The notes below the pieces were generated by a model that saw only the letters and a program-made list of their open reading frames with translations, had not been told where the DNA came from and ran no database searches. Shown piece by piece: positions 23,672 to 58,957 of a stretch of 64,000 bases of DNA; the first letter of the stretch is position 1, and every line of letters starts with the position of its first letter. The stretch spans positions 3,628 to 67,627 of the forward strand of contig CAJJNQ010000004.1 in assembly GCA_905193155.1 (NCBI GenBank), given 5' to 3'. Source of the stretch: an uncultured Christensenella sp. Its GTDB lineage: Bacteria; Bacillota; Clostridia; Christensenellales; UBA1750. Both the position numbers and the translations under genes were made by a program.

Positions 23672-24964
23672 TCAGCTCAGGCGGAAATACAGGCTGGTGT
23701 AGGGATCGATGCTGTCCATCTGCGAAACGGCGCAGTAGGGCGAGGTTTCAAACAGTTGGTTGCGGACGTGGAGCTCGTCGGTATCGAGCGGCGCTGCCGC
23801 CGCGCCCACCACCAGGCCGTCGTAGTCCTCCGGCACATAGGCGATGTAGCTTCGATAGAGCACGCGCCCCCAATCGCCTTCGTCGCCCCATTCGTTGGAA
23901 AAGAAGAACTCGATGGTTTCCTCGCTGCCGTTCCAATCGATGGTGTGCAGAAAGTGATTTTCATCCCGGCCGCTGTCGCCGGTTGCGGAAACCGAGGTCA
24001 GCCACATGCCGGAATCATAGTCATACAACTCGCAGAACAGCGTGTTGTAATAGCCCTTGCCGCCGTCGTCGGGCAGGGATTCCTGCGGAATGTAGCAGAT
24101 GGCGGTGAATTCCAGCTCGCGGATGCCGTCGTGCACGAAATCGTTGTGCAGCGCGACCTCCCAGTAAACGTCGCCGGTCTCATACCACGATTCGTCTTCC
24201 GGGAAACAGGCAAGGCCGTCGCGCAGCAGGTAGCTGCCGCCGTCCACCGGGCAGAAATCCGTCAGCCCCGCCGCTTCAAAGGCGGGTTCGCCGTCGGTCG
24301 TCTTCACGCCGGGGAGGGCAATTTCGTCCACCGCAAAGAGCGATTCGCCGGAGGAATCCTCGCTGATTTCCGTCGCGCTGATTCGCGTAAAGGTCCAGTA
24401 AGCCTCCTCGGAAGGGAGATACAGGCTCAGACCGTTCGCGTTGGCTTCCTCCACCGTGCCGGTTTCGGCTATTTCGCCGTTGCCGTCCACGGTCATCCAG
24501 TTGCCGTCGCCGTCGATGGCCAGCCAGGCATAGGCCGTGTCGTATTCCCAGACGCCGACGTAATCCGCCAGCGTGACGTCCTCTTCGTCTAAAGGAGATT
24601 CCGCCGCCGAAGGCGCCTGCGTGGGGCGGAGCGTGTCGCCGTCGTCGTCCGTGAGCAGCGTACCCGTCTCGTCCAGCAGGAAATAGTGCGCGGTTTCGCC
24701 CTGCTCGTCCAGTGCGCGGATGCCGCTGCCGTCGAATTCAAACAGCCCTGTGTAGGAAAGGCTGCCGTCGCCCGCGTAGATCGACCAGGCGTTTCCGTCC
24801 GCAAAGGCGATGACGGAGGTATAGTCGTCGTATTGCCACCAGCCGTAGTATTCGTCCAGTTCATGTCCGCCCGGCTGGGCTTCTTCCTCCTGCTTGCCGC
24901 CGCAGGCCGAAAGGCTTGCGCACAGCGTCAGCGCCAGCAGCAGGGCGAGGATGCGCTTGCACAT
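23672..24964 (-). CDS. acidic lipoprotein of unknown function (paralogue A)
   Basis: Lipobox LSAC after a signal peptide. C-terminal about 200 aa are paralogous to the upstream gene (FEAAGL, EFTAICYIP, YDGL, PY..L.F). The N-terminus has two internal repeats (YYGWWQYDD.. / YVGVWEYDT..). Confidence 0.75.
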   Translation of the reverse strand: MCKRILALLLALTLCASLSACGGKQEEEAQPGGHELDEYYGWWQYDDYTSVIAFADGNAWSIYAGDGSLSYTGLFEFDGSGIRALDEQGETAHYFLLDETGTLLTDDDGDTLRPTQAPSAAESPLDEEDVTLADYVGVWEYDTAYAWLAIDGDGNWMTVDGNGEIAETGTVEEANANGLSLYLPSEEAYWTFTRISATEISEDSSGESLFAVDEIALPGVKTTDGEPAFEAAGLTDFCPVDGGSYLLRDGLACFPEDESWYETGDVYWEVALHNDFVHDGIRELEFTAICYIPQESLPDDGGKGYYNTLFCELYDYDSGMWLTSVSATGDSGRDENHFLHTIDWNGSEETIEFFFSNEWGDEGDWGRVLYRSYIAYVPEDYDGLVVGAAAAPLDTDELHVRNQLFETSPYCAVSQMDSIDPYTSLYFRLS

Positions 24965-24982
24965 GGTTTTTCCTCCGCAAAA

Positions 24983-26128
24983 TCAGTCGATGTTGAAGAA
25001 CAGCGCGTTGTAGGGCTCAAAATCCGGCGCTTCCAATATGTTCTGGAGCGCGTAGTGATCCACGGCGTAGCCGCGCTCGTCACGAGCCTCGCCGTCCACC
25101 GCTGTGGGCACGCCGGCAAAAATCAGTCCGTCGTAGCCGTTGGGGATCACCACCTGATAGTTCACCATCAGAATGGCGGAATAATCGCCCACCTGCTGCA
25201 TCCAGTCCGTGGAATAGCTGTACAGAACGTCGTAGGGCGTGCCGTTGTATTCGATTGAATAATAGTAGGTGTTGTCGCCGTGCGTCGTGTCGCCGTAAAC
25301 CTGCGCATCCGCCAGCCAAAGACCCGTGTAGTAATCGAACATCTCCATCGAGCAGCTGGGGTAGTATTCGCCGGAATAGTTCGGGATGTCCGCATCGGGA
25401 ATATAGCAGATGGCGGTGAATTCGATCTGCCGGGTGCCGTCGCCCAGGTCGGTTTCGGAATCCTTGCGCACTTCCCACTGCGCGTCGGAGCGGTAATAGC
25501 GGGTGTAGCCGTCGGTAAAGCTCGCCGCGCCGTTTTGCAGGTAATAGGTTCCGTCGTCCATCAGGGCGTTGACGGAAAGCCCTGCCGCCTCAAAGAAGGG
25601 CTGATCGAGCTGCACGGCATACATCGCGTCGGATTCGACCGCGGGTTCGGGCGTGACCTCCGCCTCGTCGTCCTCGCTCTGGCCGGGCAGCTTGGAATAG
25701 TCGTAGTCAAAGACATAGTCCTCGCCGTCCCAGAAGTAGGTCAGCAGGATCGCGCCGTCGGTCTCAGAGTCGAACAGCAGGCGAATATCGTCATAACCAT
25801 CCTCGTCCAGATCGACAAATTCGATGGAGGAATAGCAGTCCGCCGCCTCGTCGATCGCCACGGGATAGCGCAGTTCGGCGAAGGTCACCATGTCGGGTTG
25901 ATCGAGATAGAGTACCGCTTGATCCGCTTCGACGGTGAGGGCGAGATCCATGCTCGCGCCGTCCTGCGTGATGGTGCCGTAATCGGCAATCAGACCCCAG
26001 GTGCGCCAGTCCGCACCGGCCAGGTCTTCCTCTTCTTCGTCCTGGGCAGGGGCTTTCGTGCAGGCGCAAAGGCTCAGGCAAAGGCAGAGCGCGAGCAGCA
26101 GGCTCAGAAGTTTTTTTACGGTGTTCAT
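24983..26128 (-). CDS. acidic lipoprotein of unknown function (paralogue B)
   Basis: Lipobox LCAC. Shares the C-terminal domain with 23672..24964. RBS aaaggaga. Starts 6 nt after the upstream gene stop. Confidence 0.75.
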   Translation of the reverse strand: MNTVKKLLSLLLALCLCLSLCACTKAPAQDEEEEDLAGADWRTWGLIADYGTITQDGASMDLALTVEADQAVLYLDQPDMVTFAELRYPVAIDEAADCYSSIEFVDLDEDGYDDIRLLFDSETDGAILLTYFWDGEDYVFDYDYSKLPGQSEDDEAEVTPEPAVESDAMYAVQLDQPFFEAAGLSVNALMDDGTYYLQNGAASFTDGYTRYYRSDAQWEVRKDSETDLGDGTRQIEFTAICYIPDADIPNYSGEYYPSCSMEMFDYYTGLWLADAQVYGDTTHGDNTYYYSIEYNGTPYDVLYSYSTDWMQQVGDYSAILMVNYQVVIPNGYDGLIFAGVPTAVDGEARDERGYAVDHYALQNILEAPDFEPYNALFFNID

Positions 26129-26134
26129 GGAAGT

Positions 26135-26386
26135 TTAGTCTCCTTTCGCATTCGGGCGTTCAAGCAGTTCCAGTATTTCGTCGTGAGCCAGCTCGACCTG
26201 GCGGAAGCGCACAAAAATGCCGTTGGTCGTGGCGGAAGCCCAGATCTCCGGCCGTTTCAGCGGGCGGAAGCGGATGCTTTCCAGCAGCGGCGTCATGTCC
26301 AGCATCACGCGGCTGCCCGAAACGTAATCAATCTGCAAAACATGGCCGTCCAGCGGTGTTACCGAGGAGATGTATCGTCTTTGCAT
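26135..26386 (-). CDS. small DUF2442-like protein
   Basis: 83 aa. The pattern I..V.P.....L.I.....S......M.PL......F.PL...E.W resembles DUF2442 as I remember it. Tightly coupled to the lipoprotein genes. Confidence 0.5.
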   Translation of the reverse strand: MQRRYISSVTPLDGHVLQIDYVSGSRVMLDMTPLLESIRFRPLKRPEIWASATTNGIFVRFRQVELAHDEILELLERPNAKGD

Positions 26387-26411
26387 GCCGCAGTCCCTCG
26401 CTTTTTATGAA

Positions 26412-26450
26412 TAAAAAACTCTCATCGCACCTTCATTGTACGATGAGAGT
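26412..26450 (-). terminator. rho-independent terminator or attenuator after the LuxR/MalT-like gene
   Basis: Stem actctcatcg/cgatgagagt (26418-26427 / 26441-26450) with a T6 run on the minus strand. Only about 25 nt upstream of the next start codon. Confidence 0.6.
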
Positions 26451-26474
26451 TTGCTTTTGACCATTGACCAATGG

Positions 26475-28982
26475 TTAGTTTTTTTCCTTTTCGGGCAGGA
26501 ACAGCGCCGCCAGGTGCTGCCGCTTGGTGCGCGTGTCGCCCTCGATCTGCAATTTGGCGTAGATTTTATTGATGTATTGCTTGACCGTGCCCTCGGTCAG
26601 ATACAGCTGCGCGGCGATTTCGCGGTTGGTGGCGCGGTTTGCCGCCAGGCGCGCGATGACCAGCTCGCGGTCGGTCAGATCCGACGCGGCCTTCGGACGG
26701 GAAAGACGCGCCAGCAGCGCCCGGCGGCGGGCTTCCGCTTCTGCGCCCAGCTCCCGAATGCGCGCCAGCAGCGCTGGATCGCCCTGCGCGCCGTCCAGCA
26801 AATCGCGGATCCAGCGATAATTTTCCGCAAAGGGGAGCACAATCCCGTCCGGCGCGGCGAGCTTCAGCGCCGCATTCAGCTCGGTCATCGCCTGCGCACG
26901 GCTGCGCAGCGCCGCATAGGCGGCCGCCGCCTGAATGTGCAGATGCAGCGCCACCAGCGCATAGTGCATTTTGCCGCAAATTTCCAGCAGCGAATCGCTC
27001 CGCTCCGCGACCTTTTCCCATTCCCCTTGAGAGAGATAAACCTGGTTTTCAATCATCCGCATCATGGGCTTGGCGGGGTTCAGGATGTTGACGCCATTCA
27101 GCTCATGGGTGAGGAAGGGCGCGGGGACGCGCTCGGGCAGCCCCAGCAGCGCGCAGGCATAGGCGGTCGCGCTGTCGAAGGTGAGCAGCAGCATCGCATC
27201 GCGGCGGTGAAGCAGCGCGCTGCGTGCGTCGGCGGATTCGGGCAGCGGCTGTGCATCTTCCTGCAACAGGGCGCAGCGCAGAAAAAGGTGCCGCACACAT
27301 TGGGCGATGTAGGCCTGATTTTTCTCCTCCGCAACATACCGCGCGCGGGAACCGAGCAGCCGCGCCTTTTGCAAATCGCCGCGCAGATAGGCGGCCTCGG
27401 CTTCCATCACGAGCTCCGCACCCGCCCCGTGCTCCTGCGTTACGCGGTAATAATAGGGCATGGATTCGTTCATCTGCCGCACTTCCTCATCCAGCGCGCC
27501 CGCTTCTCGGTGGAACATCTCCAGCACGGAGGGGGAGCCGAAGGTGAAGGAACCGTAGGTGCGGATGGAGACGGCGGGCCGCGTCATCTGGCGGCAGGCG
27601 CTGCGGTGCAGGGCGCTCATACCCGCGATGTCGTTATAGGCAAGAAAGCTCAGGATGAGGTCGCATTCGCCGCGCAGATTGCCGCGATCCTCGTCCGAAA
27701 GGCCGTTGTTTCCCGCTGCGGCGCATAGCAGCAGCTCCTTCAGCGCCAGCATCTGCCCGTATTTGCCCCACGAAAACAGGCGGCGCATCAGCACCAGCAG
27801 CGCGCGGGGGTGAGCTTTGAGCGCCTCGTCCGGGCAGTGCGCAAGGCCGCGCAGCACATCCTCCGGGTCGGCCGAGGCCAGCTGCACGCCCACGTCCTCC
27901 GCCACCACGCACAGCCAACCGGCGGGGTTGCCGCTCTGCTCATAGGCTGCAAGCGCTTGCAGGTATTGCCCGCTCTGCTCGTACCACGCGCCGTAGCGGT
28001 CGTAGGTTCTGCGCTGCGTTTCCGAACTCAGACGGGAAAACACGCGCCCGGCGCAGGTTTTCATCATGTGGTGGAAGCGATAGGCGCCGCTGTCCGGCAG
28101 GCGGGTGACAAAGGCGTTCTGCTCGGTCAGGCCCGTGAGCATTGTTTCCACGTCGTCCCGCCCCGTGATGCGGCGCGCCATTTCGGCGGTGAACTCGTCC
28201 GCAAGGCTCATCATGGCGAGGAATTCCTGCTCGTCTTCTGCAAGCGGATCGATCAGCGCGGAGGTAAACATCTGATAGATGTCGGAATTTTCATCCGAGA
28301 GCACGCCGCGCTCCGCAAAGGAGCAAAGGCTCAGATAGATGGCGGAAAACCAGCCCTCGCTCGAGCGCAGCAGCGCATCCATCTGCCGGTCGGTCAGCGC
28401 CACGCCGCATTTGCGCGCGTAGATGGAAAGCTCCGTGTGGTTCAGCCGCAGCTGATCCGCGCCGATGCGGTGCAGCCGCCCGCCCAGCCGCACGATCTGC
28501 GCGCCGTCTAAAAAGCGGTCGCGGCTGGCCACAACCAGATGAACGTTGTCCGGCAGCGCCATGGCCAGCGTACACAGGAAGGCGGCGGCGCGTCCATCCC
28601 GCAGGAGATGAAAATCGTCTAAAAAGATGTAGGTCGGCTTTTCACCGGCCAGTTCCCGGCAGAGCTCGTCCACCACCAGCGCCGCCGTGCCCTTATCCGT
28701 TGGGCAGTCGTATTCCGCAAGAAGCGGCAGCCCCGCAAACGAGAAGGCGTTCTGCACGCGCTTCCAGAATACCGCCAGGCTGTCGGAATAGATGCTGATG
28801 CGCAGCACAGCGGCGTTTTCTGTGCGCACACGCCCTTCCAGATACCAGTTTACCGCCGTGGTTTTGCCGTAGCCCATCGGCGCGACCACCGCCGTGATCG
28901 GGCAGGAAGAGATGTACCGAAGCTTTTCCTGAACGCGCTCCGAAATGTATCGTACATTTAGGCGCTGCTTGCTTTTCTGCAT
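26475..28982 (-). CDS. MalT-like large ATP-binding LuxR-family regulator (STAND NTPase + TPR-like region + LuxR HTH)
   Basis: Walker A APMGYGKTT near the N-terminus, Walker B-like IFLDDFH, long helical repeat region, C-terminal LTDRELVIARLAANRATNREIAAQLYLTEGTVKQYINKIYAKLQI. Confidence 0.85.
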   Translation of the reverse strand: MQKSKQRLNVRYISERVQEKLRYISSCPITAVVAPMGYGKTTAVNWYLEGRVRTENAAVLRISIYSDSLAVFWKRVQNAFSFAGLPLLAEYDCPTDKGTAALVVDELCRELAGEKPTYIFLDDFHLLRDGRAAAFLCTLAMALPDNVHLVVASRDRFLDGAQIVRLGGRLHRIGADQLRLNHTELSIYARKCGVALTDRQMDALLRSSEGWFSAIYLSLCSFAERGVLSDENSDIYQMFTSALIDPLAEDEQEFLAMMSLADEFTAEMARRITGRDDVETMLTGLTEQNAFVTRLPDSGAYRFHHMMKTCAGRVFSRLSSETQRRTYDRYGAWYEQSGQYLQALAAYEQSGNPAGWLCVVAEDVGVQLASADPEDVLRGLAHCPDEALKAHPRALLVLMRRLFSWGKYGQMLALKELLLCAAAGNNGLSDEDRGNLRGECDLILSFLAYNDIAGMSALHRSACRQMTRPAVSIRTYGSFTFGSPSVLEMFHREAGALDEEVRQMNESMPYYYRVTQEHGAGAELVMEAEAAYLRGDLQKARLLGSRARYVAEEKNQAYIAQCVRHLFLRCALLQEDAQPLPESADARSALLHRRDAMLLLTFDSATAYACALLGLPERVPAPFLTHELNGVNILNPAKPMMRMIENQVYLSQGEWEKVAERSDSLLEICGKMHYALVALHLHIQAAAAYAALRSRAQAMTELNAALKLAAPDGIVLPFAENYRWIRDLLDGAQGDPALLARIRELGAEAEARRRALLARLSRPKAASDLTDRELVIARLAANRATNREIAAQLYLTEGTVKQYINKIYAKLQIEGDTRTKRQHLAALFLPEKEKN

Positions 28983-52797: not shown

Positions 52798-53307
52798 ATG
52801 AAGTGTATGTACTGCGGCGCGACCGACAGCCGCGTGATTGACTCCCGCCCCACCGACGAGGGTCTGGCCATCCGCCGCCGCGAATGCGTCAAGTGCGGAA
52901 GGCGTTTTACGACCTATGAAAAGATCGAAAACGTACAGGTCATGGTCGTCAAGAAGGACGGCTCGCGGGAGGCGTTCGACGCGGATAAGATTCGCCGCGG
53001 CCTGATTAAGGCGTGCGAAAAGCGCCCCGTCGCCATGCACGATGTGGATCAGCTCGTGCGCGACGTTGAAACGCAGATCTATAATTCCCTCGATCAGGAG
53101 GTTTCCTCCGCGCGTATCGGGGAGATGGTCATGGAAAGGCTGCGGGGTCTGGACGAGGTCGCCTATGTGCGCTTTGCGTCGGTTTACCGCTCCTTCTGCG
53201 ACATCAACACATTCATGGAAGAACTCAAAAAGCTGCTGGGAAAGCCCGGCGCGGAAGAAAACGAAAAAGCGGAGACGAATCCTGAATCCGGCTCCCACAA
53301 CATATAA
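52798..53307 (+). CDS. nrdR: transcriptional repressor NrdR (zinc ribbon + ATP-cone)
   Basis: [18 protein letters not shown]...[16 protein letters not shown] zinc ribbon, followed by an ATP-cone. Confidence 0.95.
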
Positions 53308-53321
53308 GGAGGTTATCCAGC

Positions 53322-54020
53322 ATGCCCAGTGATACCATCTTAGCAGTGGATGATGAAGTCCATATTCTTGAATTGATTTCCTTCAACCTGAAAGCCGCAG
53401 GGTATCACGTCGTAACAGCGCTCACGGGCGAAGAAGCGCTCAAGCGCTGCGAGGTGGAAAAGCCCTCCCTGGTGCTGCTTGACATCATGCTCCCCGGCAT
53501 CGACGGACTGGAAGTCTGCCGCCGCTTAAAGGGCGACCGCACCACCAGCAACATCCCGATCATCATGCTCACCGCAAGGGGCGACGAGGTCGATAAGATC
53601 CTCGGCCTGGAATTGGGCGCGGACGATTACATCACCAAGCCTTTTTCCGTGCGCGAGCTGGCCGCCCGCGTAAAATCCCTGCTGCGCCGCGTCGCGCCTC
53701 AGCAGGAGAGCGAGCCGCAGACCCTGCGTGCCGGCGATATCATGATCGATATTACCAATTATGAAGCCTTTAAGGGCGGCGAAAAGCTCTCGCTGACCCT
53801 CAAGGAATTTGAACTGCTCAAAGTGCTCGTTCTCAGCCGCGGCAAGGTTTTGACCCGCGATTTCCTGCTGGATCGCATTTGGGGCTATGAGTATTACGGT
53901 GAAACCCGCACCGTGGACGTGCATATCCGTCACCTCCGCCAGAAGCTGGGCGAGGAGCCTTATATTGAAACGGTCAGAGGCGTAGGGTATCGTTTCGTTG
54001 ATCGGGAGCAGGAAGCGTGA
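53322..54020 (+). CDS. OmpR/PhoB-family response regulator (PhoP-like)
   Basis: Receiver domain (ILAVDDE, LVLLDIMLPGIDG, MLTARG) and winged-helix output (TRTVDVHIRHLRQKL, RGVGYRF). Confidence 0.9.
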   Translation: MPSDTILAVDDEVHILELISFNLKAAGYHVVTALTGEEALKRCEVEKPSLVLLDIMLPGIDGLEVCRRLKGDRTTSNIPIIMLTARGDEVDKILGLELGADDYITKPFSVRELAARVKSLLRRVAPQQESEPQTLRAGDIMIDITNYEAFKGGEKLSLTLKEFELLKVLVLSRGKVLTRDFLLDRIWGYEYYGETRTVDVHIRHLRQKLGEEPYIETVRGVGYRFVDREQEA

Positions 54021-55729
54021 AATCCATGTACCGGCGCATCATTGTTGTTGCGTCGGTTTTTGTACTGGTGATCGTGACGGTTGCTTCCTTCTTCTCCATT
54101 CGCATCACGATGCAGGAGGAGCAGGGCGCGCTGTGCGAACAGCTGATGCAGGCCGCGCGCTACGCCGCAAGGTCTGCCCAGAAGGAAGAGGATCTGGATC
54201 ACATCGCCGCGCTGATGGGCGCCCGCGTCACGCGGATATCCCTCGACGGCGAGGTGCTCTATGATTCCGGCGGACAGTCGGGGTATTATCTCGATCAGCC
54301 CGACGTCATCCGCGCCATTTCCACCGGGGCGGGGGAGGAGATTTCCTTCACCGGCCGCCTGGCACAGATGCAGGTCGCAGTGTCCGTTCGGCAGGGGGAC
54401 AGCATTCTCCGCCTGACCAAGTCCCAGACGGTGTTCCGCAATGGAGATTGGGGATTGTTCGCCGCGCTGATGTGCATCCTGCTGGTCGTGGCGATCTATA
54501 TTTCCTTCGTCATGGCGCGGCGCATCGTCACCCCCATCAGCCAGCTCTCCAACGCGGCACAGTCCATCATTGACGGGCATGCCGGCGTCAATCTCCGTCT
54601 GGAGAATTATTCGGAACTCAACCAGCTGCTGCGCACGCTGCAATCGATGAATACCCGTTTGCAGGATATTGTCGAAAAACTGCAGCACAAAAGCGCCGAG
54701 CTGGAATCCATCATTGCGCATATGCTCAACGGCCTGATCGCCGTGGACGGCCAGCTGCACGTCGTGCAGATGAACGGCGCCGCCAAGCATATGCTGGGCG
54801 TGACCGGCAACGTCGAGGGCAAGCACGTGCTCGAAGCCACCGGCAACTCCCGCCTGGAAGCGGGTCTGCAGGAGGCCATGGAGCACGAAGAGCTCTTTAC
54901 GCTCGAGCTGCCCGTGCGCGCCGCACCGCGGCACCGGCTCATCCGCCTGTACATCTCTCCGCTGGAGCATGAGGACGAATCCATCGGCGCGGTTGCGCTG
55001 CTGGAGGACATCACCGAGCTGCGCAATCTGGAGCAGATGCGCACGGACTTTGCCGCCAACGTCACCCATGAGCTGAAAACGCCGCTGACCTCGATCCGTG
55101 GCTTCGTCGAAACCCTTCAAGCCGGCGCGATTGAAGACCCGGAGATGGCCAAGCGCTTCCTGGGCATTATTTCCATGGAAACCGATCGTCTCTCCCGCCT
55201 GATTAACGACGTTTTGTCCCTGTCCTCGATGGAAAACGGCCGCGTCCGCGTACCCACCGAGCGTCTGAGCCTGGGCAAGCGCGCGGGCGATGTCTGCCTG
55301 ATGCTCGACAAGAGCGCCAAGAACAAGAACATCGAGTTGAACGTGGACGAGGGCGAGGATACCTTCATCATCGCCAACGACGACCACGTCAAGCAGCTGC
55401 TCATCAACCTGATCGACAACGCCATCAAGTACACGCTGGAAGGCGGCAAGGTGTTTGTCAAGGTGGAGCATGTGGAGGATAAGGTGCTGCTCCACGTCAA
55501 GGATACCGGCATCGGCATCGCGCAGGAGCATATCCCGCGCCTGTTCGAGCGCTTTTACCGCGTGGACAAGGGACGCAGCCGCAACATGGGCGGAACGGGA
55601 CTGGGTCTTGCCATCGTCAAGCATATCGTCATGGATATGGGCGGGCAGATCGATGTACAGTCCGAGCTGAACGTCGGCACTGAATTTACCGTGACGCTGC
55701 CGTACGGCCCAAAACAGGAAGAAAAATAG
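54017..55729 (+). CDS. sensor histidine kinase (PhoR-like: 2 TM, HAMP, PAS, HisKA, HATPase)
   Basis: H-box FAANVTHELKTPLTSIRGF, N-box LINLIDNAIKYT, DTGIGI, GGTGLGLAIVKH. 4-nt overlap with the regulator gene. Confidence 0.9.
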   Translation: MKSMYRRIIVVASVFVLVIVTVASFFSIRITMQEEQGALCEQLMQAARYAARSAQKEEDLDHIAALMGARVTRISLDGEVLYDSGGQSGYYLDQPDVIRAISTGAGEEISFTGRLAQMQVAVSVRQGDSILRLTKSQTVFRNGDWGLFAALMCILLVVAIYISFVMARRIVTPISQLSNAAQSIIDGHAGVNLRLENYSELNQLLRTLQSMNTRLQDIVEKLQHKSAELESIIAHMLNGLIAVDGQLHVVQMNGAAKHMLGVTGNVEGKHVLEATGNSRLEAGLQEAMEHEELFTLELPVRAAPRHRLIRLYISPLEHEDESIGAVALLEDITELRNLEQMRTDFAANVTHELKTPLTSIRGFVETLQAGAIEDPEMAKRFLGIISMETDRLSRLINDVLSLSSMENGRVRVPTERLSLGKRAGDVCLMLDKSAKNKNIELNVDEGEDTFIIANDDHVKQLLINLIDNAIKYTLEGGKVFVKVEHVEDKVLLHVKDTGIGIAQEHIPRLFERFYRVDKGRSRNMGGTGLGLAIVKHIVMDMGGQIDVQSELNVGTEFTVTLPYGPKQEEK

Positions 55730-55739
55730 ACATCATTGA

Positions 55740-55783
55740 GTACAAAAAGAACGGTTTCGCTATGCGAACCGTTCTTTTTGTAC
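55740..55783. terminator. strong bidirectional terminator between the two-component genes and the pst-like genes
   Basis: 17-bp stem gtacaaaaagaacggtt/aaccgttctttttgtac. Confidence 0.8.
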
Positions 55784-55830
55784 TGAATTCGCATCCCAGA
55801 ACGATTTTGCCCATAATTAACGTTGGGCGC

Positions 55831-55861
55831 ATTGTCCTATATCCACAATTCATATACAATT
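55831..55861 (+). promoter_or_regulatory. ATTGT / ACAATT repeat set upstream of the pstC-like gene (candidate response-regulator site)
   Basis: ACAATT-catat-ACAATT direct repeat with an 11-bp period (55845-55861), plus an inverted ATTGT at 55831-55835. Confidence 0.3.
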
Positions 55862-55914: not shown

Positions 55915-56727
55915 ATGAAGAAAAATTTGGATCGCATAATGCGCCTGTGCGCAGGGGCGGGCGGCGTGCTGGCCGTGCTGATCATCGGCTGTGCGGCGGT
56001 GTTTGCATTGAGCACGCTGCTGTTTGAAAATGTGCAGGCCGCGGAAACGTTTTCAGGAACGTCGGCGCTGCTGCCCAAGGCGCTGGAAATGACGGGCTTT
56101 ACGCTGACCACGTCGCTGGCGGCGGTGCTGCTGGCGTTCCCGATCGCCTGGTCGATCTCGGTGATGGTGGTCTTTGTGATGCACGCGAAGCACCTGATGC
56201 CGATGACCCGGGCAATATCGGGCTTTTCGGCGATCCCGGCGGTCGTGTTCGGCTATATGGGGCTGACTTTCTTAGCACCCAAAGCGCCCAGCGCGTGGTT
56301 GGGCGTGACGGCGACGCTGGTGCTGATGAGCCTGATGGATTTGACGCTGCTGCTGATCCGCGTGCACGTCAAGCACCTGCCGGCGTTGGAATCCTCGCAG
56401 GCGCTGGGCGCGTTTCTTTCGGAAACCGTGCTGGGCGTGGTGGTGCCGCGCGCGGCGCGCAGCTATCTCTATGCCGCGTTGCGGATGCTGGCGCGCAGCA
56501 TGGGCGAGGGCGTGGCGATCCTGCTGGTGCTCTCCGCCTATAGCGGGGAAAACGATACGCTGGTCACGGCGCTGATGAAGGCGGTCGGGGTCACGGGCGG
56601 GGTTGTGAACACGGGCTATGCGCTGCTGCTGGTGGCGCTGCTGCTGATCCTGGTGCTGGCAACCAATGCCCTGATCTCCTATTGCCAGGAAGGAGGACGG
56701 CGTGGAAAGAAGAAAGGCGTGGAATAA
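55915..56727 (+). CDS. PstC-like phosphate ABC transporter permease (divergent)
   Basis: ISGFSAIPAVVFGYMG and SSQALGAF..ETVLGVVVPRA..ARSMGEGVAILLV align with the PstC LAGIPSVVYG / EAA-loop blocks. The start 55915 vs 55876 is uncertain. Confidence 0.7.
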   Translation: MKKNLDRIMRLCAGAGGVLAVLIIGCAAVFALSTLLFENVQAAETFSGTSALLPKALEMTGFTLTTSLAAVLLAFPIAWSISVMVVFVMHAKHLMPMTRAISGFSAIPAVVFGYMGLTFLAPKAPSAWLGVTATLVLMSLMDLTLLLIRVHVKHLPALESSQALGAFLSETVLGVVVPRAARSYLYAALRMLARSMGEGVAILLVLSAYSGENDTLVTALMKAVGVTGGVVNTGYALLLVALLLILVLATNALISYCQEGGRRGKKKGVE

Positions 56728-57496
56728 ATGTTTTCTGGCGGCGCTGATCCTGCTTTCGGCCTGCGGCGTGATTCTGCTCTTTTATCCGCTGATCCGGCTG
56801 CTGAGCGAAGCGGTCACGGCGCTGCTGCGCTCCTGGGGCGTGCTGCCCGGCATCGGGCAGGTGTTTCTGCGCACCATGGAGCTGCTGCTGCTGACGGTGT
56901 TGCTGACGTTGCCCGCCGCCTGCCTGATCACGATTTTTATGTACCGCTCGGTGCGCGGCGCATGGCTGACGCGCATCCAGCGCTTTATGCGCGGATTCTC
57001 CCGTGTGCCCGCCGTGCTGTTCGGCCTGGTCGGCTATGCATTGACCGGGCGAAAAGCCGCCGTTCACGAGAGCCTGACCGTGATGGCGGTGCTGCTGGCG
57101 GTGATGTTTCTGCCCTATACCGTGGCGCGGCTCGACGCGGCGCTGCGCGAGGTGCCGGAGAAATACCGGCAGGCGGGCGAGGCGCTGGGCGGCTCGTTCG
57201 GGCAGGTGTTTTTCAAGATTATCATTCCCCAGGCCATGCCGGATCTGTCGCGTGTGGTTCTGAGCCTGATTGAAAGAATATTGAGCGAGGCGACGGCGCT
57301 GCTGGTGCTGATGGGCGCGGTGATGCCCAATCAGGTGCTGGCCACCGAGCTTTTCCGCCTGACCTGGTTGGGCAGGCAGGACGCCGCCGTGCTGGCAATG
57401 GGGCTGGTGCTGGTGATGATCCTGCTGCGCGTGCTCACAGCGCTGAAGTGGCGCGGTGAAAGGGAGGAAGAAAATTGCCGATACAACTGGTGGTAG
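56702..57496 (+). CDS. PstA-like phosphate ABC transporter permease (divergent)
   Basis: YRQAGEALGGSFGQVFFKIIIPQAMPDL..ILSEATALLVL matches the PstA EAA-loop pattern. GTG start overlapping the upstream gene. Confidence 0.7.
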   Translation: MERRKAWNKCFLAALILLSACGVILLFYPLIRLLSEAVTALLRSWGVLPGIGQVFLRTMELLLLTVLLTLPAACLITIFMYRSVRGAWLTRIQRFMRGFSRVPAVLFGLVGYALTGRKAAVHESLTVMAVLLAVMFLPYTVARLDAALREVPEKYRQAGEALGGSFGQVFFKIIIPQAMPDLSRVVLSLIERILSEATALLVLMGAVMPNQVLATELFRLTWLGRQDAAVLAMGLVLVMILLRVLTALKWRGEREEENCRYNWW

Positions 57497-58221
57497 AAAA
57501 CCTCAATGCGTCCATTGACGACAAAGTTGTGCTGCACGATTTGGCCGTCACGGCGCAGGCGGGGCATATCCTGGCCCTGATGGGCAAGGGCGGCTGCGGC
57601 AAATCCACTTTCCTGCGCGTGATCAACCGCATGGCGGAGGAGGGCGGGGCAGTGGTCAGCGGCCACATCATGCTGGACAACAGCTCGATCTTCATGCAGG
57701 ATATAAGCCTTCTGCGGCAGAAAGTGGGCATGGTCTTTACCGAGCCTGTGCTCTTTGCCGGAAATATATTGGGCAACATCACCGCGGGGCTTCGCTTGCA
57801 GGGCATTAAGAAAAAGCAGAAATTGGAAGAGTGCGCGGAGGAAACGCTGGGATATATGGGCATATTGGAGGAATTCCGTGATTTGCTCTACACCGACGCT
57901 TCTTATCTAAACCGTTCGCAGGCGCAGCTGGTGTGCATTGCGCGCGCGCTTGCGCTGCGGCCGGGCCTGCTGCTGATGGACGAACCCACCCGCCTGCTCG
58001 ACAGCATGACGAGCATGAAGGTGGAAGATATGATGTTCAACCTCAAAAAGGACTGCACCATCGTCGTGGCGGTGCATTCGCCGCAGATGGCGGGGCGCAT
58101 TGCCGAGGAGACCGCCATGATGGAGGACGGCACGGTGCTCGAATGGGGCCGCACCAGCGACCTGTTCTATCATCCGCAGCACCTGCACACCGAGCAGTTC
58201 GTCAGCTCCAAATTCGCCTAA
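57475..58221 (+). CDS. PstB-like ABC ATPase with degenerate Q-loop and signature motifs
   Basis: Overall PstB layout (GKGGCGKSTFLRVINRM, VGMVF, CIARALA, LLLMDEP, TEQFVSSKF), but VFQ is VFT and LSGGQ is LNRSQ (57907-57921). TTG start. Confidence 0.8.
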   Translation: MPIQLVVENLNASIDDKVVLHDLAVTAQAGHILALMGKGGCGKSTFLRVINRMAEEGGAVVSGHIMLDNSSIFMQDISLLRQKVGMVFTEPVLFAGNILGNITAGLRLQGIKKKQKLEECAEETLGYMGILEEFRDLLYTDASYLNRSQAQLVCIARALALRPGLLLMDEPTRLLDSMTSMKVEDMMFNLKKDCTIVVAVHSPQMAGRIAEETAMMEDGTVLEWGRTSDLFYHPQHLHTEQFVSSKFA

Positions 58222-58257
58222 ACCTTTCAAGAAACGCGGAGGAACAGAGGATACGAT

Positions 58258-58914
58258 ATGCGAAGCATTTACGATCAGGAAATGCGCGAGATCCAGCGCG
58301 ACAGCATCCATATGTGCAACCTGGCGGCCGAGACCCTTCAGGATGTGATGGATGCGGTGCGCCGCCGCGACTTCAACGTCGTGGACCGCGTGTTGGAGCA
58401 GGATTACACCCTGCGGCAAATGCGCATGGCCATCAATGAGCGCGTGATGCGCATGATCGCCACGCAGCACCCCGTCGCGGTGGACCTGCGCAAGCTGTTT
58501 TATCTGGTTCATACGGCGGATGAGATGGAGCGCATCGGCTATCAGGCGGCGGGCATCGGCCGCGCGATGATGCGGGAGCAATACGGCAAGGTGCCGCTGC
58601 TGGACGATATTTTCCGCATGAGTGAGCGCGTCGGAACTATGCTCGAGCGCGTGCTCACCTGTTCGCTGGGCGAGGATGCCGAGGGCATGAAGGCTGTGCT
58701 GCAAATGGACGACGAGGTGGACGTGATCTGCGAGCAGATTTACCGCGAGTGCATCGCCCGCCAGGGCGCGCATCAGGTGCAGGACAGTGAGACGATGACC
58801 GCCATCAGCATCGCGCAGTACCTCGAACACGTCGGCGACCATGCGGTCAACTGGGCGCGGTGGTGGCTCTATTTCAACGGGGGGCCGGGCGAAACCGGCG
58901 ACGTGATCGTTTAG
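58258..58914 (+). CDS. phoU: phosphate signalling complex protein PhoU
   Basis: Two PhoU repeats with E/DxxxD motifs (ADEMERIGYQA, LEHVGDHAVN). 218 aa. Confidence 0.9.
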   Translation: MRSIYDQEMREIQRDSIHMCNLAAETLQDVMDAVRRRDFNVVDRVLEQDYTLRQMRMAINERVMRMIATQHPVAVDLRKLFYLVHTADEMERIGYQAAGIGRAMMREQYGKVPLLDDIFRMSERVGTMLERVLTCSLGEDAEGMKAVLQMDDEVDVICEQIYRECIARQGAHQVQDSETMTAISIAQYLEHVGDHAVNWARWWLYFNGGPGETGDVIV

Positions 58915-58928
58915 ACGAGAAGAAACGG

Positions 58929-58957
58929 GAAGGACGCATTCATGCGTCCTTCTTTTG
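58929..58957 (+). terminator. rho-independent terminator after phoU
   Basis: gaaggacgca/tgcgtccttc stem followed by tttt. Confidence 0.65.

What the first reader, a model, noticed from the sequence alone, without database searches (positions are those of the whole stretch)
55915..58914. pstS-less pstC-pstA-pstB-phoU module whose ATPase has degenerate Q-loop and ABC signature: possible sensing-only Pst complex
Seen in the sequence. After the PhoP/PhoR-like genes and a 17-bp-stem terminator come the pstC-like, pstA-like, pstB-like and phoU genes. No substrate-binding pstS gene is present, and there is no room for one between 55730 and 55914.

The PstB homologue keeps these motifs:
- Walker A (GKGGCGKST)
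- Walker B (LLLMDEP)
- the H-loop His

It has lost these motifs:
- the Q-loop Gln is Thr (VGMVFT, codon at 57739)
- the LSGGQ signature is LNRSQ (57907-57921)
- SALD is RLLD

Established knowledge. The signature Ser/Gly contact the ATP gamma-phosphate across the dimer, and PstB is a homodimer, so both sites would be affected. In E. coli the PstSCAB-PhoU complex also signals phosphate status to PhoR independently of net transport.

Inference. This module may be a transport-impaired paralogue kept for signalling to the adjacent kinase, or it may use a different energising logic.
Basis: partly seen in the sequence, partly recalled or inferred. Interest (0 to 1): 0.65.

Follow-up and report, generated by a model that had tools for sequence, protein, structure and literature searches.

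The report
Degenerate, pstS-less phosphate-transporter module beside PhoR
Next to a phosphate-sensing kinase, this gut bacterium keeps a stripped-down copy of the phosphate ABC importer with no binding protein, trimmed docking loops and a damaged ATP site, and conservation across species suggests it now signals rather than transports.

Summary

**Layout.** The + strand carries phoP-like RR, phoR-like HK and a terminator, then its own promoter, pstC*, pstA*, pstB*, phoU and a second terminator. There is no pstS.

**PstB\* motifs.** It keeps Walker A, Walker B and the H-loop His. It has Q-loop Gln→Thr, signature LNRSQ and D-loop RLLD.

**Not errors or decay.**
- The variants recur in about 25 protein clusters from Candidatus Spyradocola-like Christensenellales.
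- Synteny is identical across these genomes.
- Median dN/dS is 0.18 for PstB* and PhoU, and 0.45–0.49 for the permeases.

**Permeases.** They keep the EAA coupling loops. PstC* keeps its Pi-site Arg; the PstA* Arg is kept in most members. Both have lost 10–24 residues from the periplasmic loops that dock PstS in E. coli.

**Other lineages.** At least six unrelated lineages carry an independently degenerate PstB beside phoU, four of them beside a phoB/phoR-type regulator gene. One genome has such a module 2.5 kb from a complete canonical pstSCAB.

**Verdict.** The best reading is a transport-dead Pst remnant that controls PhoR through PhoU (confidence about 0.6). I could not test whether Spyradocola has a canonical pstSCAB elsewhere, and there is no biochemistry. 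I found no published description. I rate it a new variant of a known kind, moderately high interest.

The parts
53322..54020 (+). phoP/phoB-like OmpR-family response regulator
   Evidence: Pfam Response_reg plus Trans_reg_C. The best NCBIfam hit is PhoB TIGR02154 (250.8 bits, below the 296 cutoff). It is 98-99% identical across species, with dN/dS 0.03.
54017..55729 (+). phoR/pnpS-like sensor histidine kinase (two TM segments, about 120-aa extracytoplasmic region, HAMP, PAS, HisKA, HATPase)
   Evidence: NCBIfam PnpS NF046044 scores 410 bits against a cutoff of 400. Pfam finds HAMP, PAS_4, HisKA and HATPase_c.
55739..55784 (+). intrinsic-terminator-like hairpin after phoR
   Evidence: Folds at -31.7 kcal/mol, z = -8.67. 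A hairpin at the same place in 8 species is kept by compensatory changes.
55803..55824 (+). candidate response-regulator (Pho-box-like) site: direct repeat with 11-bp period, GATTTTGCCCA/TAATTAACGTT
   Evidence: The block is conserved in orthologous intergenic regions, with consensus GATTTAGCCCATATTTAACCTT. It is unique in the 64-kb window, with 0 matches in 100 shuffles. Its function is inferred.
55832..55860 (+). sigma-A-type promoter, TTGTCC-17 nt-TACAAT
   Evidence: Found by the promoter scan. Both the -10 TA(C/A)AAT and the -35 TTGnnn are conserved in orthologues.
55915..56727 (+). pstC* : strongly diverged PstC-like permease (270 aa)
   Evidence: - TIGR02138 gives E = 2e-9 over the full length, but only 36.7 bits against a cutoff of 196.
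- PDB phmmer hits E. coli PstC 9k3x_B.
- The best fold matches of the AF2 model are the three E. coli PstC chains.
- The EAA loop and the R237/E241 equivalents are kept. The P1, TM3-4 and P3 loops are shortened by 12, 24 and 10 aa.
- dN/dS is 0.49.
56702..57496 (+). pstA* : diverged PstA-like permease (264 aa); its 3' end overlaps pstB* by 22 nt
   Evidence: - TIGR00974 scores 81 bits against a cutoff of 193; Pfam BPD_transp_1 also hits.
- PDB hit to E. coli PstA 9k3x_A.
- The EAA loop is kept. The R220 equivalent is kept in most members, but is K in L013 and D in L005. The P1 and P3 loops are shortened by 11 and 15 aa.
- dN/dS is 0.45.
57475..58221 (+). pstB* : PstB-like ABC NBD with degenerate Q-loop (T89), signature (LNRSQ, 57907-57921) and D-loop (RLLD); Walker A, Walker B and H-loop His kept
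   Evidence: - TIGR00972 scores 232.7 bits against a cutoff of 343.
- Motif alignment.
- The AF2 model has pLDDT 93.4, an intact NBD fold.
- dN/dS is 0.18.
58258..58914 (+). phoU (218 aa)
   Evidence: TIGR02135 scores 132.5 bits against a cutoff of 130.25; Pfam PhoU hits twice. dN/dS is 0.18. The first ERIGD motif reads ERIGY throughout the clade.
58929..58952 (+). terminator-like hairpin after phoU
   Evidence: A 10-bp G+C-rich inverted repeat, GAAGGACGCATTCATGCGTCCTTC, followed by TTTTG on the + strand.

Best explanation
The four genes pstC*-pstA*-pstB*-phoU form their own transcription unit downstream of phoPR. I read them as a 'fossilised' Pst complex that no longer imports phosphate and instead works as an accessory signalling module for the PhoR kinase.

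**Shown.**
- There is no binding protein in the locus.
- The periplasmic loops that dock PstS in E. coli are trimmed.
- The single PstB* lacks the Q-loop Gln and the signature Ser/Gly. As a homodimer, both of its ATP sites would therefore be non-canonical.
- All four proteins are kept intact across species. PstB* and PhoU are the most constrained; the permeases are under relaxed constraint.

**Inferred.**
- PstC*A* anchors a PstB* dimer at the membrane through the retained EAA coupling loops.
- PstB* still binds nucleotide through Walker A and Walker B, but cannot complete an ATP-driven closure and hydrolysis cycle. The complex therefore sits mainly in the resting, inward-facing state.
- PhoU bridges PstB* to the PAS domain of PhoR and holds PhoR in its phosphatase mode, as the non-transporting PstB(Q160K) mutant does in E. 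coli.

**Two possible sources of modulation; I cannot choose between them.**
- A cytoplasmic ligand (Pi at the retained Arg/Glu site of the permeases, or nucleotide or Pi at the Arg-enriched PstB* interface).
- The amount of complex made. In that case the candidate PhoP box upstream would give a negative-feedback loop.
For: **Conservation and selection.**
- The motif pattern is conserved in a narrow clade of about 25 clusters at 50-100% identity. The next hits are canonical PstB at about 42%. The clade is a single 50%-identity representative among 1.84 billion proteins.
- All ORFs are intact in 8 species at dS of about 0.8. Median dN/dS: PstB* 0.18, PhoU 0.18, PstA* 0.45, PstC* 0.49, against SigG 0.11 and TilS 0.29.

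**Context.**
- Synteny is fixed as nrdR-phoP-phoR-pstC*-pstA*-pstB*-phoU-marR-tilS, with no pstS.
- The operon has its own conserved promoter and a repeat box between two terminators.

**Permeases.**
- The PstS-docking P1/P3 loops are shortened by 10-15 aa, and the PstC TM3-4 loop by 24 aa.
- The EAA loops and the PstC R237/E241 equivalents are kept in all members; the PstA R220 equivalent is kept in most.
- Docking and Pi-specificity roles are taken from PMC12976172.

**E. coli precedent.** PstB Q160K and E179Q abolish transport yet still signal Pi-replete and Pi-limited states respectively (PMC5775613).

**Independent recurrence.**
- L032: RR-HK-perm-perm-pstB*-phoU.
- L029: perm-perm-pstB*-phoU.
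- L026 and L033: pstB*-phoU-RR-HK, with no permeases.
- L034: perm-perm-pstB*-phoU-RR, 2.5 kb from a complete canonical pstS-C-A-B that lacks phoU.
- Each degenerate lineage is closer to canonical PstB (38-52%) than to the other degenerate lineages (32-44%).

**Control set.** In loci with at least 3.5 kb of upstream sequence, 14 of 24 single canonical pstB genes and 10 of 10 tandem pairs have pstS-C-A directly upstream. The window clade has 0 of 4.
Against: - There is no biochemical or genetic test. Loss of ATPase activity and of transport is inferred from motifs alone.
- Walker A Lys, Walker B Asp-Glu and the H-loop His are conserved, and the permease Pi-site Arg/Glu are mostly kept. A purely structural scaffold would not need these, so some nucleotide- or Pi-dependent activity probably remains.
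- A canonical pstSCAB or another Pi transporter elsewhere in Spyradocola genomes could not be looked for. If none exists, this module may have to transport.
- In lineage L030, a degenerate pstB*-phoU lies beside a canonical pstS-pstC-pstA that has no pstB of its own within 7 kb. A degenerate PstB might therefore still serve a transporter in some organisms.
- pstB-phoU-RR operons without permeases also occur with fully canonical PstB (L060, L099, L111). That arrangement alone does not prove a sensing-only role.
Confidence: 0.6

Rival explanations
1. The module is still a phosphate transporter with unusual energetics. One version is a binding-protein-independent, low-affinity importer. Another is an ATP-gated Pi channel or facilitator, in the way CFTR is a degenerate ABC protein turned channel. 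Nucleotide binding at the non-canonical sites would gate the PstC*A* pore.
For: The R237/E241 (PstC) equivalents are kept throughout the clade, and the R220 (PstA) equivalent is kept in most members. Walker A, Walker B and the H-loop are conserved. The NBD fold is predicted intact. No other Pi transporter is seen in the 64-kb window.
Against: - The permeases are the fastest-evolving genes in the region (dN/dS 0.45-0.49; 44-61% identity, where PstB* is 68-82%).
- PstA R220 is Asp in one member and Lys in another.
- Other lineages have lost the permeases altogether yet keep pstB*-phoU with phoBR.
- L034 has a canonical transporter next door.
Confidence: 0.15
2. The module is a normal importer that uses parts encoded elsewhere. 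These would be an orphan PstS, or a canonical PstB that heterodimerises with PstB* to give one working and one degenerate ATP site, as in many heterodimeric ABC transporters.
For: - Keeping Walker A, Walker B and the H-loop while losing the signature is the pattern of the 'signature-degenerate' partner in asymmetric ABC dimers.
- Tandem PstB pairs with complementary degeneracy (LTPEQ-type plus VTNNVKQ-type) exist in complete pstSCABB-phoU operons.
- L030 shows a degenerate pstB* beside a pstSCA without pstB.
Against: - PstB* has also lost its own Q-loop Gln, so the site built on its Walker motifs is impaired too.
- The operon has only one pstB*, together with two permeases that each carry an EAA loop.
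- The PstS-docking loops are trimmed.
- All natural complementary pairs seen are adjacent genes in pstS-containing operons (10 of 10). That is unlike the arrangement here.
Confidence: 0.12
3. The pst-like genes are decaying relics with no function, and only phoU matters.
For: The PstC* and PstA* scores lie far below the family cutoffs. Their dN/dS is raised.
Against: - The ORFs are intact and of constant length in at least 8 species at dS of about 0.8.
- dN/dS is well below 1 for all genes, and 0.18 for PstB*.
- Specific replacement residues are conserved: T89, R147 and R173 are nearly invariant.
- The ribosome-binding sites and the translationally coupled overlaps are conserved.
- A G-to-R change in the signature recurs in independent lineages.
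Confidence: 0.04

Closest known systems
E. coli PstSCAB-PhoU-PhoR/PhoB phosphate signalling complex
   Same: It shares homologous PstC, PstA, PstB and PhoU next to a PhoR/PhoB-type two-component system. In E. coli, signalling can be separated from transport: PstB Q160K and E179Q (PMC5775613), and the PstA R220 and PstC R237 mutants (my own knowledge of Cox et al. 1988-89). PhoU links PstB to the PhoR PAS domain (Gardner et al. 2014, cited in PMC12976172).
   Different: Here there is no PstS. The PstS-docking loops are shortened. The PstB Q-loop, signature and D-loop are naturally degenerate. The permeases are under relaxed constraint. The organism is a Gram-positive-type Clostridia whose PhoR has an extracytoplasmic domain.
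Streptococcus pneumoniae PnpRS with Pst1/Pst2 and PhoU1/PhoU2
   Same: Both are Firmicutes with a PnpS-type kinase (best NCBIfam model) encoded directly upstream of a pst operon that ends in phoU (PMC4913102 abstract).
   Different: In the pneumococcus both Pst systems are complete transporters with PstS.
Asymmetric ABC transporters with one degenerate nucleotide-binding site (TAP1/2, CFTR, TM287/288, LmrCD; tandem PstB pairs seen here)
   Same: They show non-canonical signature, Q-loop or H-loop residues that are conserved by selection.
   Different: Those are heterodimers that keep one consensus site and still transport. Here a single PstB* would form a homodimer, so both sites would lack the signature Ser/Gly and the Q-loop Gln. 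Apart from the PstB pairs, the named examples rest on my own knowledge.
Transporter-derived sensors (UhpC for UhpB/UhpA in E. coli; Snf3/Rgt2 and Ssy1 in yeast; BceAB-type sensing transporters)
   Same: The logic is the same: a transporter homologue retained as the input device of a signalling pathway.
   Different: They belong to different protein families. UhpC, Snf3 and Rgt2 are MFS proteins. BceAB still hydrolyses ATP and signals by flux. The comparison rests on my own knowledge and is an analogy only.

Membership tests
PstB (NCBIfam TIGR00972, phosphate ABC transporter ATP-binding protein) | Score above the curated equivalog cutoff (343.2 bits) | tested here: not met
   232.7 bits. PstB is still the best-scoring family over its full length.
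ABC ATPase, catalytically competent NBD | Walker A GxxGxGK[ST] and Walker B hhhhDE | tested here: met
   GKGGCGKST and LLLMDEP. Both are conserved in the clade.
ABC ATPase, catalytically competent NBD | LSGGQ signature (Ser and Gly contact the ATP gamma-phosphate across the dimer) | tested here: not met
   LNRSQ in the window. In the clade it is L[NTAS]R[SGA]Q, with LTLSQ and LSEPQ in the two most divergent members.
ABC ATPase, catalytically competent NBD | Q-loop glutamine | tested here: not met
   Thr89 (VGMVFTEP). It is conserved in the clade, apart from P0019 (VPASP) and P0026 (VMSEP).
ABC ATPase, catalytically competent NBD | H-loop histidine and D-loop SALD | tested here: inconclusive
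   The H-loop His is kept (VHSPQ), but lost in P0026. The D-loop reads TRLLD instead of SALD.
ABC ATPase, catalytically competent NBD | Measurable ATP hydrolysis | not testable with these tools
   This needs purified protein.
PstC (TIGR02138) / PstA (TIGR00974) permeases | Score above the curated cutoffs (196.45 and 193.45 bits) | tested here: not met
   36.7 and 81.3 bits. Homology itself is supported by full-length profile coverage, by PDB hits to E. coli PstC and PstA and by fold matches to 9k3x_B, 9k3y_B and 9k3s_B.
PstC/PstA permeases | EAA coupling loop and the Pi-site residues PstC R237/E241 and PstA R220 | tested here: met
   Present in the window protein. PstC R/E are invariant in the clade. 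PstA R220 is replaced by K in L013 and by D in L005.
PstSCAB importer (complete system) | Cognate substrate-binding protein PstS in the operon, and P1/P3 docking loops of normal length | tested here: not met
   No PstS homologue in the window or in any orthologous locus. The loops are shortened by 10-24 aa. A PstS elsewhere in the genome was not testable.
PhoU (TIGR02135) | Score above the cutoff (130.25 bits) and two PhoU repeats | tested here: met
   132.5 bits, with two PF01895 stretches. The first ERIGD motif reads ERIGY.
PhoR/PnpS-type histidine kinase | Score above the PnpS cutoff (400 bits) and a PAS-HisKA-HATPase architecture | tested here: met
   410.3 bits, with HAMP, PAS_4, HisKA and HATPase_c.

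The most novel reading that the evidence does not exclude
Degenerate Pst modules may be a widespread, repeatedly evolved class of dedicated phosphate-signalling devices.

- In this reading, a PstB* that has lost its catalytic cycle works with PhoU, with or without shrunken permeases, as the input or brake of PhoR. A separate canonical PstSCAB does the transport. L034 shows both side by side.
- PstB* often carries a convergent Gly-to-Arg change in the signature (LxRGQ).
- If the retained permease Arg/Glu site or the Arg-rich PstB* interface binds cytoplasmic Pi or nucleotide, these modules would be natural, transport-independent sensors of intracellular phosphate status.
Probability: 0.4. Interest if true: 0.8.

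Novelty: new variant of a known kind. Interest (0 to 1): 0.66.

Why it matters
How PhoR learns the phosphate status from the Pst transporter is a decades-old open question. The leading idea is that the conformational state of PstB, relayed by PhoU, carries the signal, rather than transport itself. That idea rests mainly on engineered E. coli mutants.

A naturally occurring Pst complex that has shed its binding protein, its docking loops and its catalytic motifs, yet stays under selection next to PhoR and PhoU, would be an evolutionary experiment making the same point.

It would also be a simpler system for working out the PstB-PhoU-PhoR interface, because transport would not be a confounding variable. 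The recurrence in unrelated lineages, and the coexistence with a canonical transporter in one genome, suggest a general and so far undescribed design.

There is a practical point as well. Annotation pipelines will probably label these genes as phosphate transporters, which could mislead metabolic reconstructions of gut Christensenellales.

Tried and rejected
- **Assembly error: rejected.** The sequence is identical on independent contigs, and the motifs are conserved in orthologues.
- **P0025 as a natural hybrid: rejected.** P0025 has a window-type N-terminus and a canonical C-terminus. On contig L021, bases 1-225 match the window at 98% and the rest is 47% GC against 60%. L038 is a similar chimera at the Walker B DNA. 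L043 ('55% identity') is the window species with many frameshifts, not a new lineage.
- **Pseudogenes: rejected** on dN/dS and intact ORFs.
- **pstS or another Pi transporter in the window: none found.** I used tblastn with PstS and Pfam scans of the transporter-like operons, which turned out to be metNIQ and suf.
- **Canonical pstSCAB elsewhere in Spyradocola genomes: not possible.** The single genome-contig scan went on identifying the organism. Look-ups return only ±10 kb, and the databases give no assembly-level listing.
- **More distant PstC* relatives: none found.** Only clade members came back.
- The alignment had no conserved stretch. The narrower scan returned mostly canonical PstB, which I used as a control set.
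- **Naming the organisms of the other degenerate lineages: failed.** Cluster look-up gave no organism names.
- **Literature.** Seven full-text searches found no description of degenerate, pstS-less Pst modules.


Full report
**What is there**

On the + strand the window encodes the following genes:
- An OmpR-family response regulator at 53322-54020. Its best NCBIfam model is PhoB.
- A PAS-containing histidine kinase at 54017-55729. It scores 410 bits on the PnpS model, above the 400-bit cutoff.
- After a 185-bp gap, four genes that overlap or sit close together: a PstC-like permease (55915-56727), a PstA-like permease (56702-57496), a PstB-like ATPase (57475-58221) and PhoU (58258-58914).

- Thr replaces the Q-loop Gln at codon 57739.
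- The signature is LNRSQ at 57907-57921.
- The D-loop is RLLD.
- Walker A (GKGGCGKST), Walker B (LLLMDEP) and the H-loop His are present.

The hairpin after phoR folds at -31.7 kcal/mol with z = -8.7. No PstS homologue is detectable in the window or in related loci.

The four pst-like proteins differ a great deal in how far they have drifted from their families:

| Protein | Family model | Score (bits) | Cutoff (bits) |
|---|---|---|---|
| PhoU | TIGR02135 | 132.5 | 130.25 |
| PstB* | TIGR00972 | 232.7 | 343 |
| PstA* | TIGR00974 | 81 | 193 |
| PstC* | TIGR02138 | 36.7 | 196 |

PstC* has no Pfam hit at all.

**The features are not artefacts or decay**

A search of 5.8 billion proteins finds a compact clade of about 25 clusters at 50-100% identity. 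There is then a gap down to canonical PstB at about 42%. In a library of 1.84 billion 50%-identity representatives, the whole clade collapses to one entry. That entry scores 490 bits, and the next scores 249.

Genome hits name the clade as Candidatus Spyradocola and related uncultured Christensenellales.

The variant motifs are shared across the clade:
- VFTEP in the Q-loop.
- L[NTAS]R[SGA]Q in the signature.
- TRLLD in the D-loop.
- T89, R147 and R173 are nearly invariant.

The same protein occurs at 100% identity on independent contigs.

Synteny is fixed in every locus recovered, and none has pstS. The order is spoIIGA-sigE-sigG-PRC-nrdR-phoP-phoR-pstC*-pstA*-pstB*-phoU-marR-tilS-hpt-ftsH.

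Across eight species at dS of about 0.8, all ORFs are intact. Median dN/dS values are:

| Gene | dN/dS |
|---|---|
| RR | 0.03 |
| SigG | 0.11 |
| PstB* | 0.18 |
| PhoU | 0.18 |
| HK | 0.21 |
| TilS | 0.29 |
| PstA* | 0.45 |
| PstC* | 0.49 |

So PstB* and PhoU are clearly under purifying selection. The permeases are retained but under relaxed constraint.

AlphaFold2 predicts an intact NBD fold for PstB* (pLDDT 93.4). The moderate-confidence PstC* model (pLDDT 63) best matches the three E. coli PstC chains in the PDB.

**Anatomy of the permeases**

I aligned PstC* and PstA* with E. coli and Roseburia PstC/PstA and read the result against the 2026 cryo-EM study of E. coli PstSCAB (PMC12976172).

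- **Kept.** Both proteins keep the EAA coupling loops. PstC* keeps the equivalents of Arg237 and Glu241 in all members. PstA* keeps the Arg220 equivalent in most, though it is Lys in L013 and Asp in L005.
- **Lost.** The P1 loops (TM1-TM2) are shorter by 11-12 residues. The P3 loops (TM5-TM6) are shorter by 10-15. The PstC TM3-TM4 loop is shorter by 24.

In E. coli, P1 and P3 are the loops that reach into PstS and stabilise its docking. Trimming the docking surface fits a complex that no longer works with a binding protein.

**Operon signals**

The phoR-pstC* spacer has three conserved features:
- The terminator hairpin, kept by compensatory changes in eight species.
- A direct repeat with 11-bp period, GATTTAGCCCA/TATTTAACCTT. 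In the window it reads GATTTTGCCCATAATTAACGTT at 55803-55824. It is unique in the window, with 0 matches in 100 shuffles.
- A sigma-A-type promoter, TTGTCC-17-TACAAT, at 55832-55860.

A second hairpin follows phoU at 58929-58952. The module is therefore its own transcription unit. The repeat has the form expected of an OmpR/PhoB-family site, but its function is inferred.

**Comparative evidence from other lineages**

The profile search unexpectedly returned many other PstB-like representatives with degenerate motifs. Each is closer to canonical PstB (38-52%) than to the other degenerate lineages (32-44%). This points to independent degenerations.

Their genomic contexts are:

| Locus | Arrangement |
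|---|---|
| L032 (65% GC) | RR-HK-permease(245 aa)-permease(217 aa)-pstB*-phoU, the same architecture as the window; NCBIfam assigns PhoB, PnpS/PhoR, weak PstC/PstA, sub-threshold PstB and PhoU |
| L029 | permease-permease-pstB*-phoU, no pstS upstream |
| L026, L033 | pstB*-phoU-RR-HK, no permeases |
| L034 | permease(202)-permease(229)-pstB*-phoU-RR, 2.5 kb from a complete canonical pstS-pstC-pstA-pstB without phoU |
| L030 | pstB*-phoU convergent with a canonical pstS-pstC-pstA that has no pstB of its own within 7 kb |

In L034 the degenerate PstB* has signature LHRGQ, Q-loop Gln→Arg and H-loop His→Phe. The neighbouring canonical PstB has LSGGQ, VFQKP and THN. L034 shows directly that a degenerate phoU-linked module and a working-type transporter can coexist in one genome. 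L030 is a caveat for the sensing-only reading.

A Gly-to-Arg change at the third signature position (LxRGQ or LxRSQ) recurs in the window clade and in P0127, P0150, P0208 and P0219. Related changes are LDREQ in P0178 and LSKSQ in P0206.

**Control set**

A metagenome scan gave 80 further loci, mostly with canonical PstB. I counted those with at least 3.5 kb of upstream sequence:
- Single canonical pstB: 14 of 24 have pstS-pstC-pstA directly upstream, and 4 more have pstS elsewhere in the locus.
- Tandem pstB pairs: 10 of 10 have pstS upstream.
- Window clade: 0 of 4.

The tandem pairs show complementary degeneracy. One copy keeps LSGGQ but lacks the Q-loop Gln and the H-loop His. The other keeps all the Walker-side motifs but has LTPEQ as its signature. 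That is the classical asymmetric-dimer solution, and it leaves one consensus site.

The window module is different. It has a single pstB* that has lost both the signature and its own Q-loop, so no consensus site can form in a homodimer.

**Mechanism**

In E. coli, PstB Q160K and E179Q both abolish transport. Q160K still signals Pi sufficiency and E179Q still signals Pi limitation (PMC5775613). Signalling therefore follows the state of PstB and not Pi flux.

By analogy, I propose the following:
- PstC*A* anchors a PstB* dimer that cannot complete ATP-driven closure and hydrolysis.
- PhoU couples this resting-state complex to the PhoR PAS domain and so restrains the kinase.

What modulates the module is not settled. 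There are two candidates:
- A cytoplasmic ligand acting at the retained permease Arg/Glu site or at the Arg-enriched PstB* interface.
- The expression level of the module, through the putative PhoP box. This would give negative feedback.

The steps that are shown are the gene content, the motif states, the conservation, the loop deletions and the recurrence. Loss of ATPase activity, loss of transport, the PhoU bridge and the ligand are all inferred.

**Rivals**

- **Residual transport or channel activity.** The kept Pi-site residues and Walker motifs allow it. The fast-evolving permeases, the R220D variant, the permease-less lineages and L034 argue against it.
- **Dependence on a distant PstS or a canonical PstB partner.** This cannot be excluded without whole genomes. 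The trimmed docking loops and the lost Q-loop argue against it.
- **Pure decay.** The selection data exclude it.

**Novelty**

Seven full-text searches found no description of naturally degenerate, pstS-less Pst modules. The components and the signalling concept are known. The natural transport-dead variant and its recurrence appear to be new. I rate it a new variant of a known kind, with interest 0.66.

**Limits**

I therefore could not test whether Spyradocola has a canonical pstSCAB, Pit or NptA.
- The organisms behind the other degenerate lineages are unnamed.
- Nothing here measures ATPase activity, transport or signalling.

Noticed in passing
L070, L080, L081, L087, L089, L090, L101-L103, L108, L112, L114 (metagenome loci): Tandem pstB genes sit inside complete pstS-pstC-pstA-pstB-pstB-phoU operons and show complementary degeneracy. 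The first copy keeps LSGGQ but has lost the Q-loop Gln and the H-loop His (VFSVP, VTNNVKQ). The second keeps Walker A, Walker B, the Q-loop and the H-loop but has signature LTPEQ, LAPEQ, LSPEQ or LTDEQ. Together they would form a heterodimer with one consensus and one degenerate ATP site.
   Followed up: partly
L034:5710-13926: One genome carries a degenerate permease-permease-pstB*-phoU-RR module next to a complete canonical pstS-pstC-pstA-pstB on the other strand. phoU is linked to the degenerate copy only. A Ppx/GppA gene lies nearby.
   Followed up: yes
L030:6429-12119 and L031: A degenerate pstB* (Walker A GPPRGGKSI, signature LTRGQ, LLLEES in place of LLLDEP, H-loop His→Asn) with phoU lies convergent to a canonical pstS-pstC-pstA-mscS that has no pstB of its own within 7 kb. 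The pstB* cluster has 12 member sequences; one of them occurs on 42 contigs. Whether another pstB exists in that genome is unknown.
   Followed up: partly
L045, L046, L053, L057, L061-L064 (27-32% GC): A low-GC lineage has the order RR-HK-pstB-phoU-(RR)-pstS-pstC-pstA, with a second pstB about 3 kb further on. The pstB next to the kinase has fully canonical motifs.
   Followed up: no
alignment: window 57907-57921; P0127, P0150, P0178, P0206, P0208, P0219: A convergent substitution occurs at the first Gly of the LSGGQ signature, to Arg (or Lys), giving LxRGQ or LxRSQ. It is seen in several independently degenerate PstB lineages. In the window clade the D-loop also gains a nearly invariant Arg (TRLLD).
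   Followed up: partly
L021:1-225, L038:5768-6511, L043: Public contigs include assembly chimeras that join the window-type pstB* to a canonical pstB from another organism. The joins are at the conserved Walker A DNA (L021) or Walker B DNA (L038). L043 (VOFG01002518.1) is a heavily frameshifted copy of the window locus.
   Followed up: yes
window 58258-58914 (PhoU residues about 98-103): The first of the two PhoU E/DxxxD metal-site motifs reads ERIGY instead of ERIGD in every member of the clade. The second (EHVGDH) is kept. PhoU proteins of the other degenerate lineages keep ERIGD.
   Followed up: partly
window 53322-54020: The response regulator is 98-99% identical in protein sequence across species whose synonymous divergence is about 0.8 (dN/dS 0.03). 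It is far more constrained than its partner kinase (dN/dS 0.21) or sigG (0.11).
   Followed up: partly
window 52798-53322: nrdR ends 14 bp before the phoP-like gene, and the order nrdR-phoP-phoR is conserved in all relatives. The two-component genes may therefore be co-transcribed with nrdR. No promoter or terminator was seen between them.
   Followed up: no
window 57475-57496: pstA* and pstB* overlap by 22 nt. The invariant C-terminal tail of PstA* (CRYNWW) is encoded in this overlap, in a different frame from the N-terminus of PstB* (MPIQLVVE). The overlap may explain why the tail is conserved.
   Followed up: partly
window 23672-28982 (- strand): Two large ORFs (430 aa and 381 aa) have coding-like GC3 but no Pfam hit at E ≤ 1e-6. 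Next to them is an 835-aa protein whose only hit is a C-terminal LuxR/GerE HTH.
   Followed up: no
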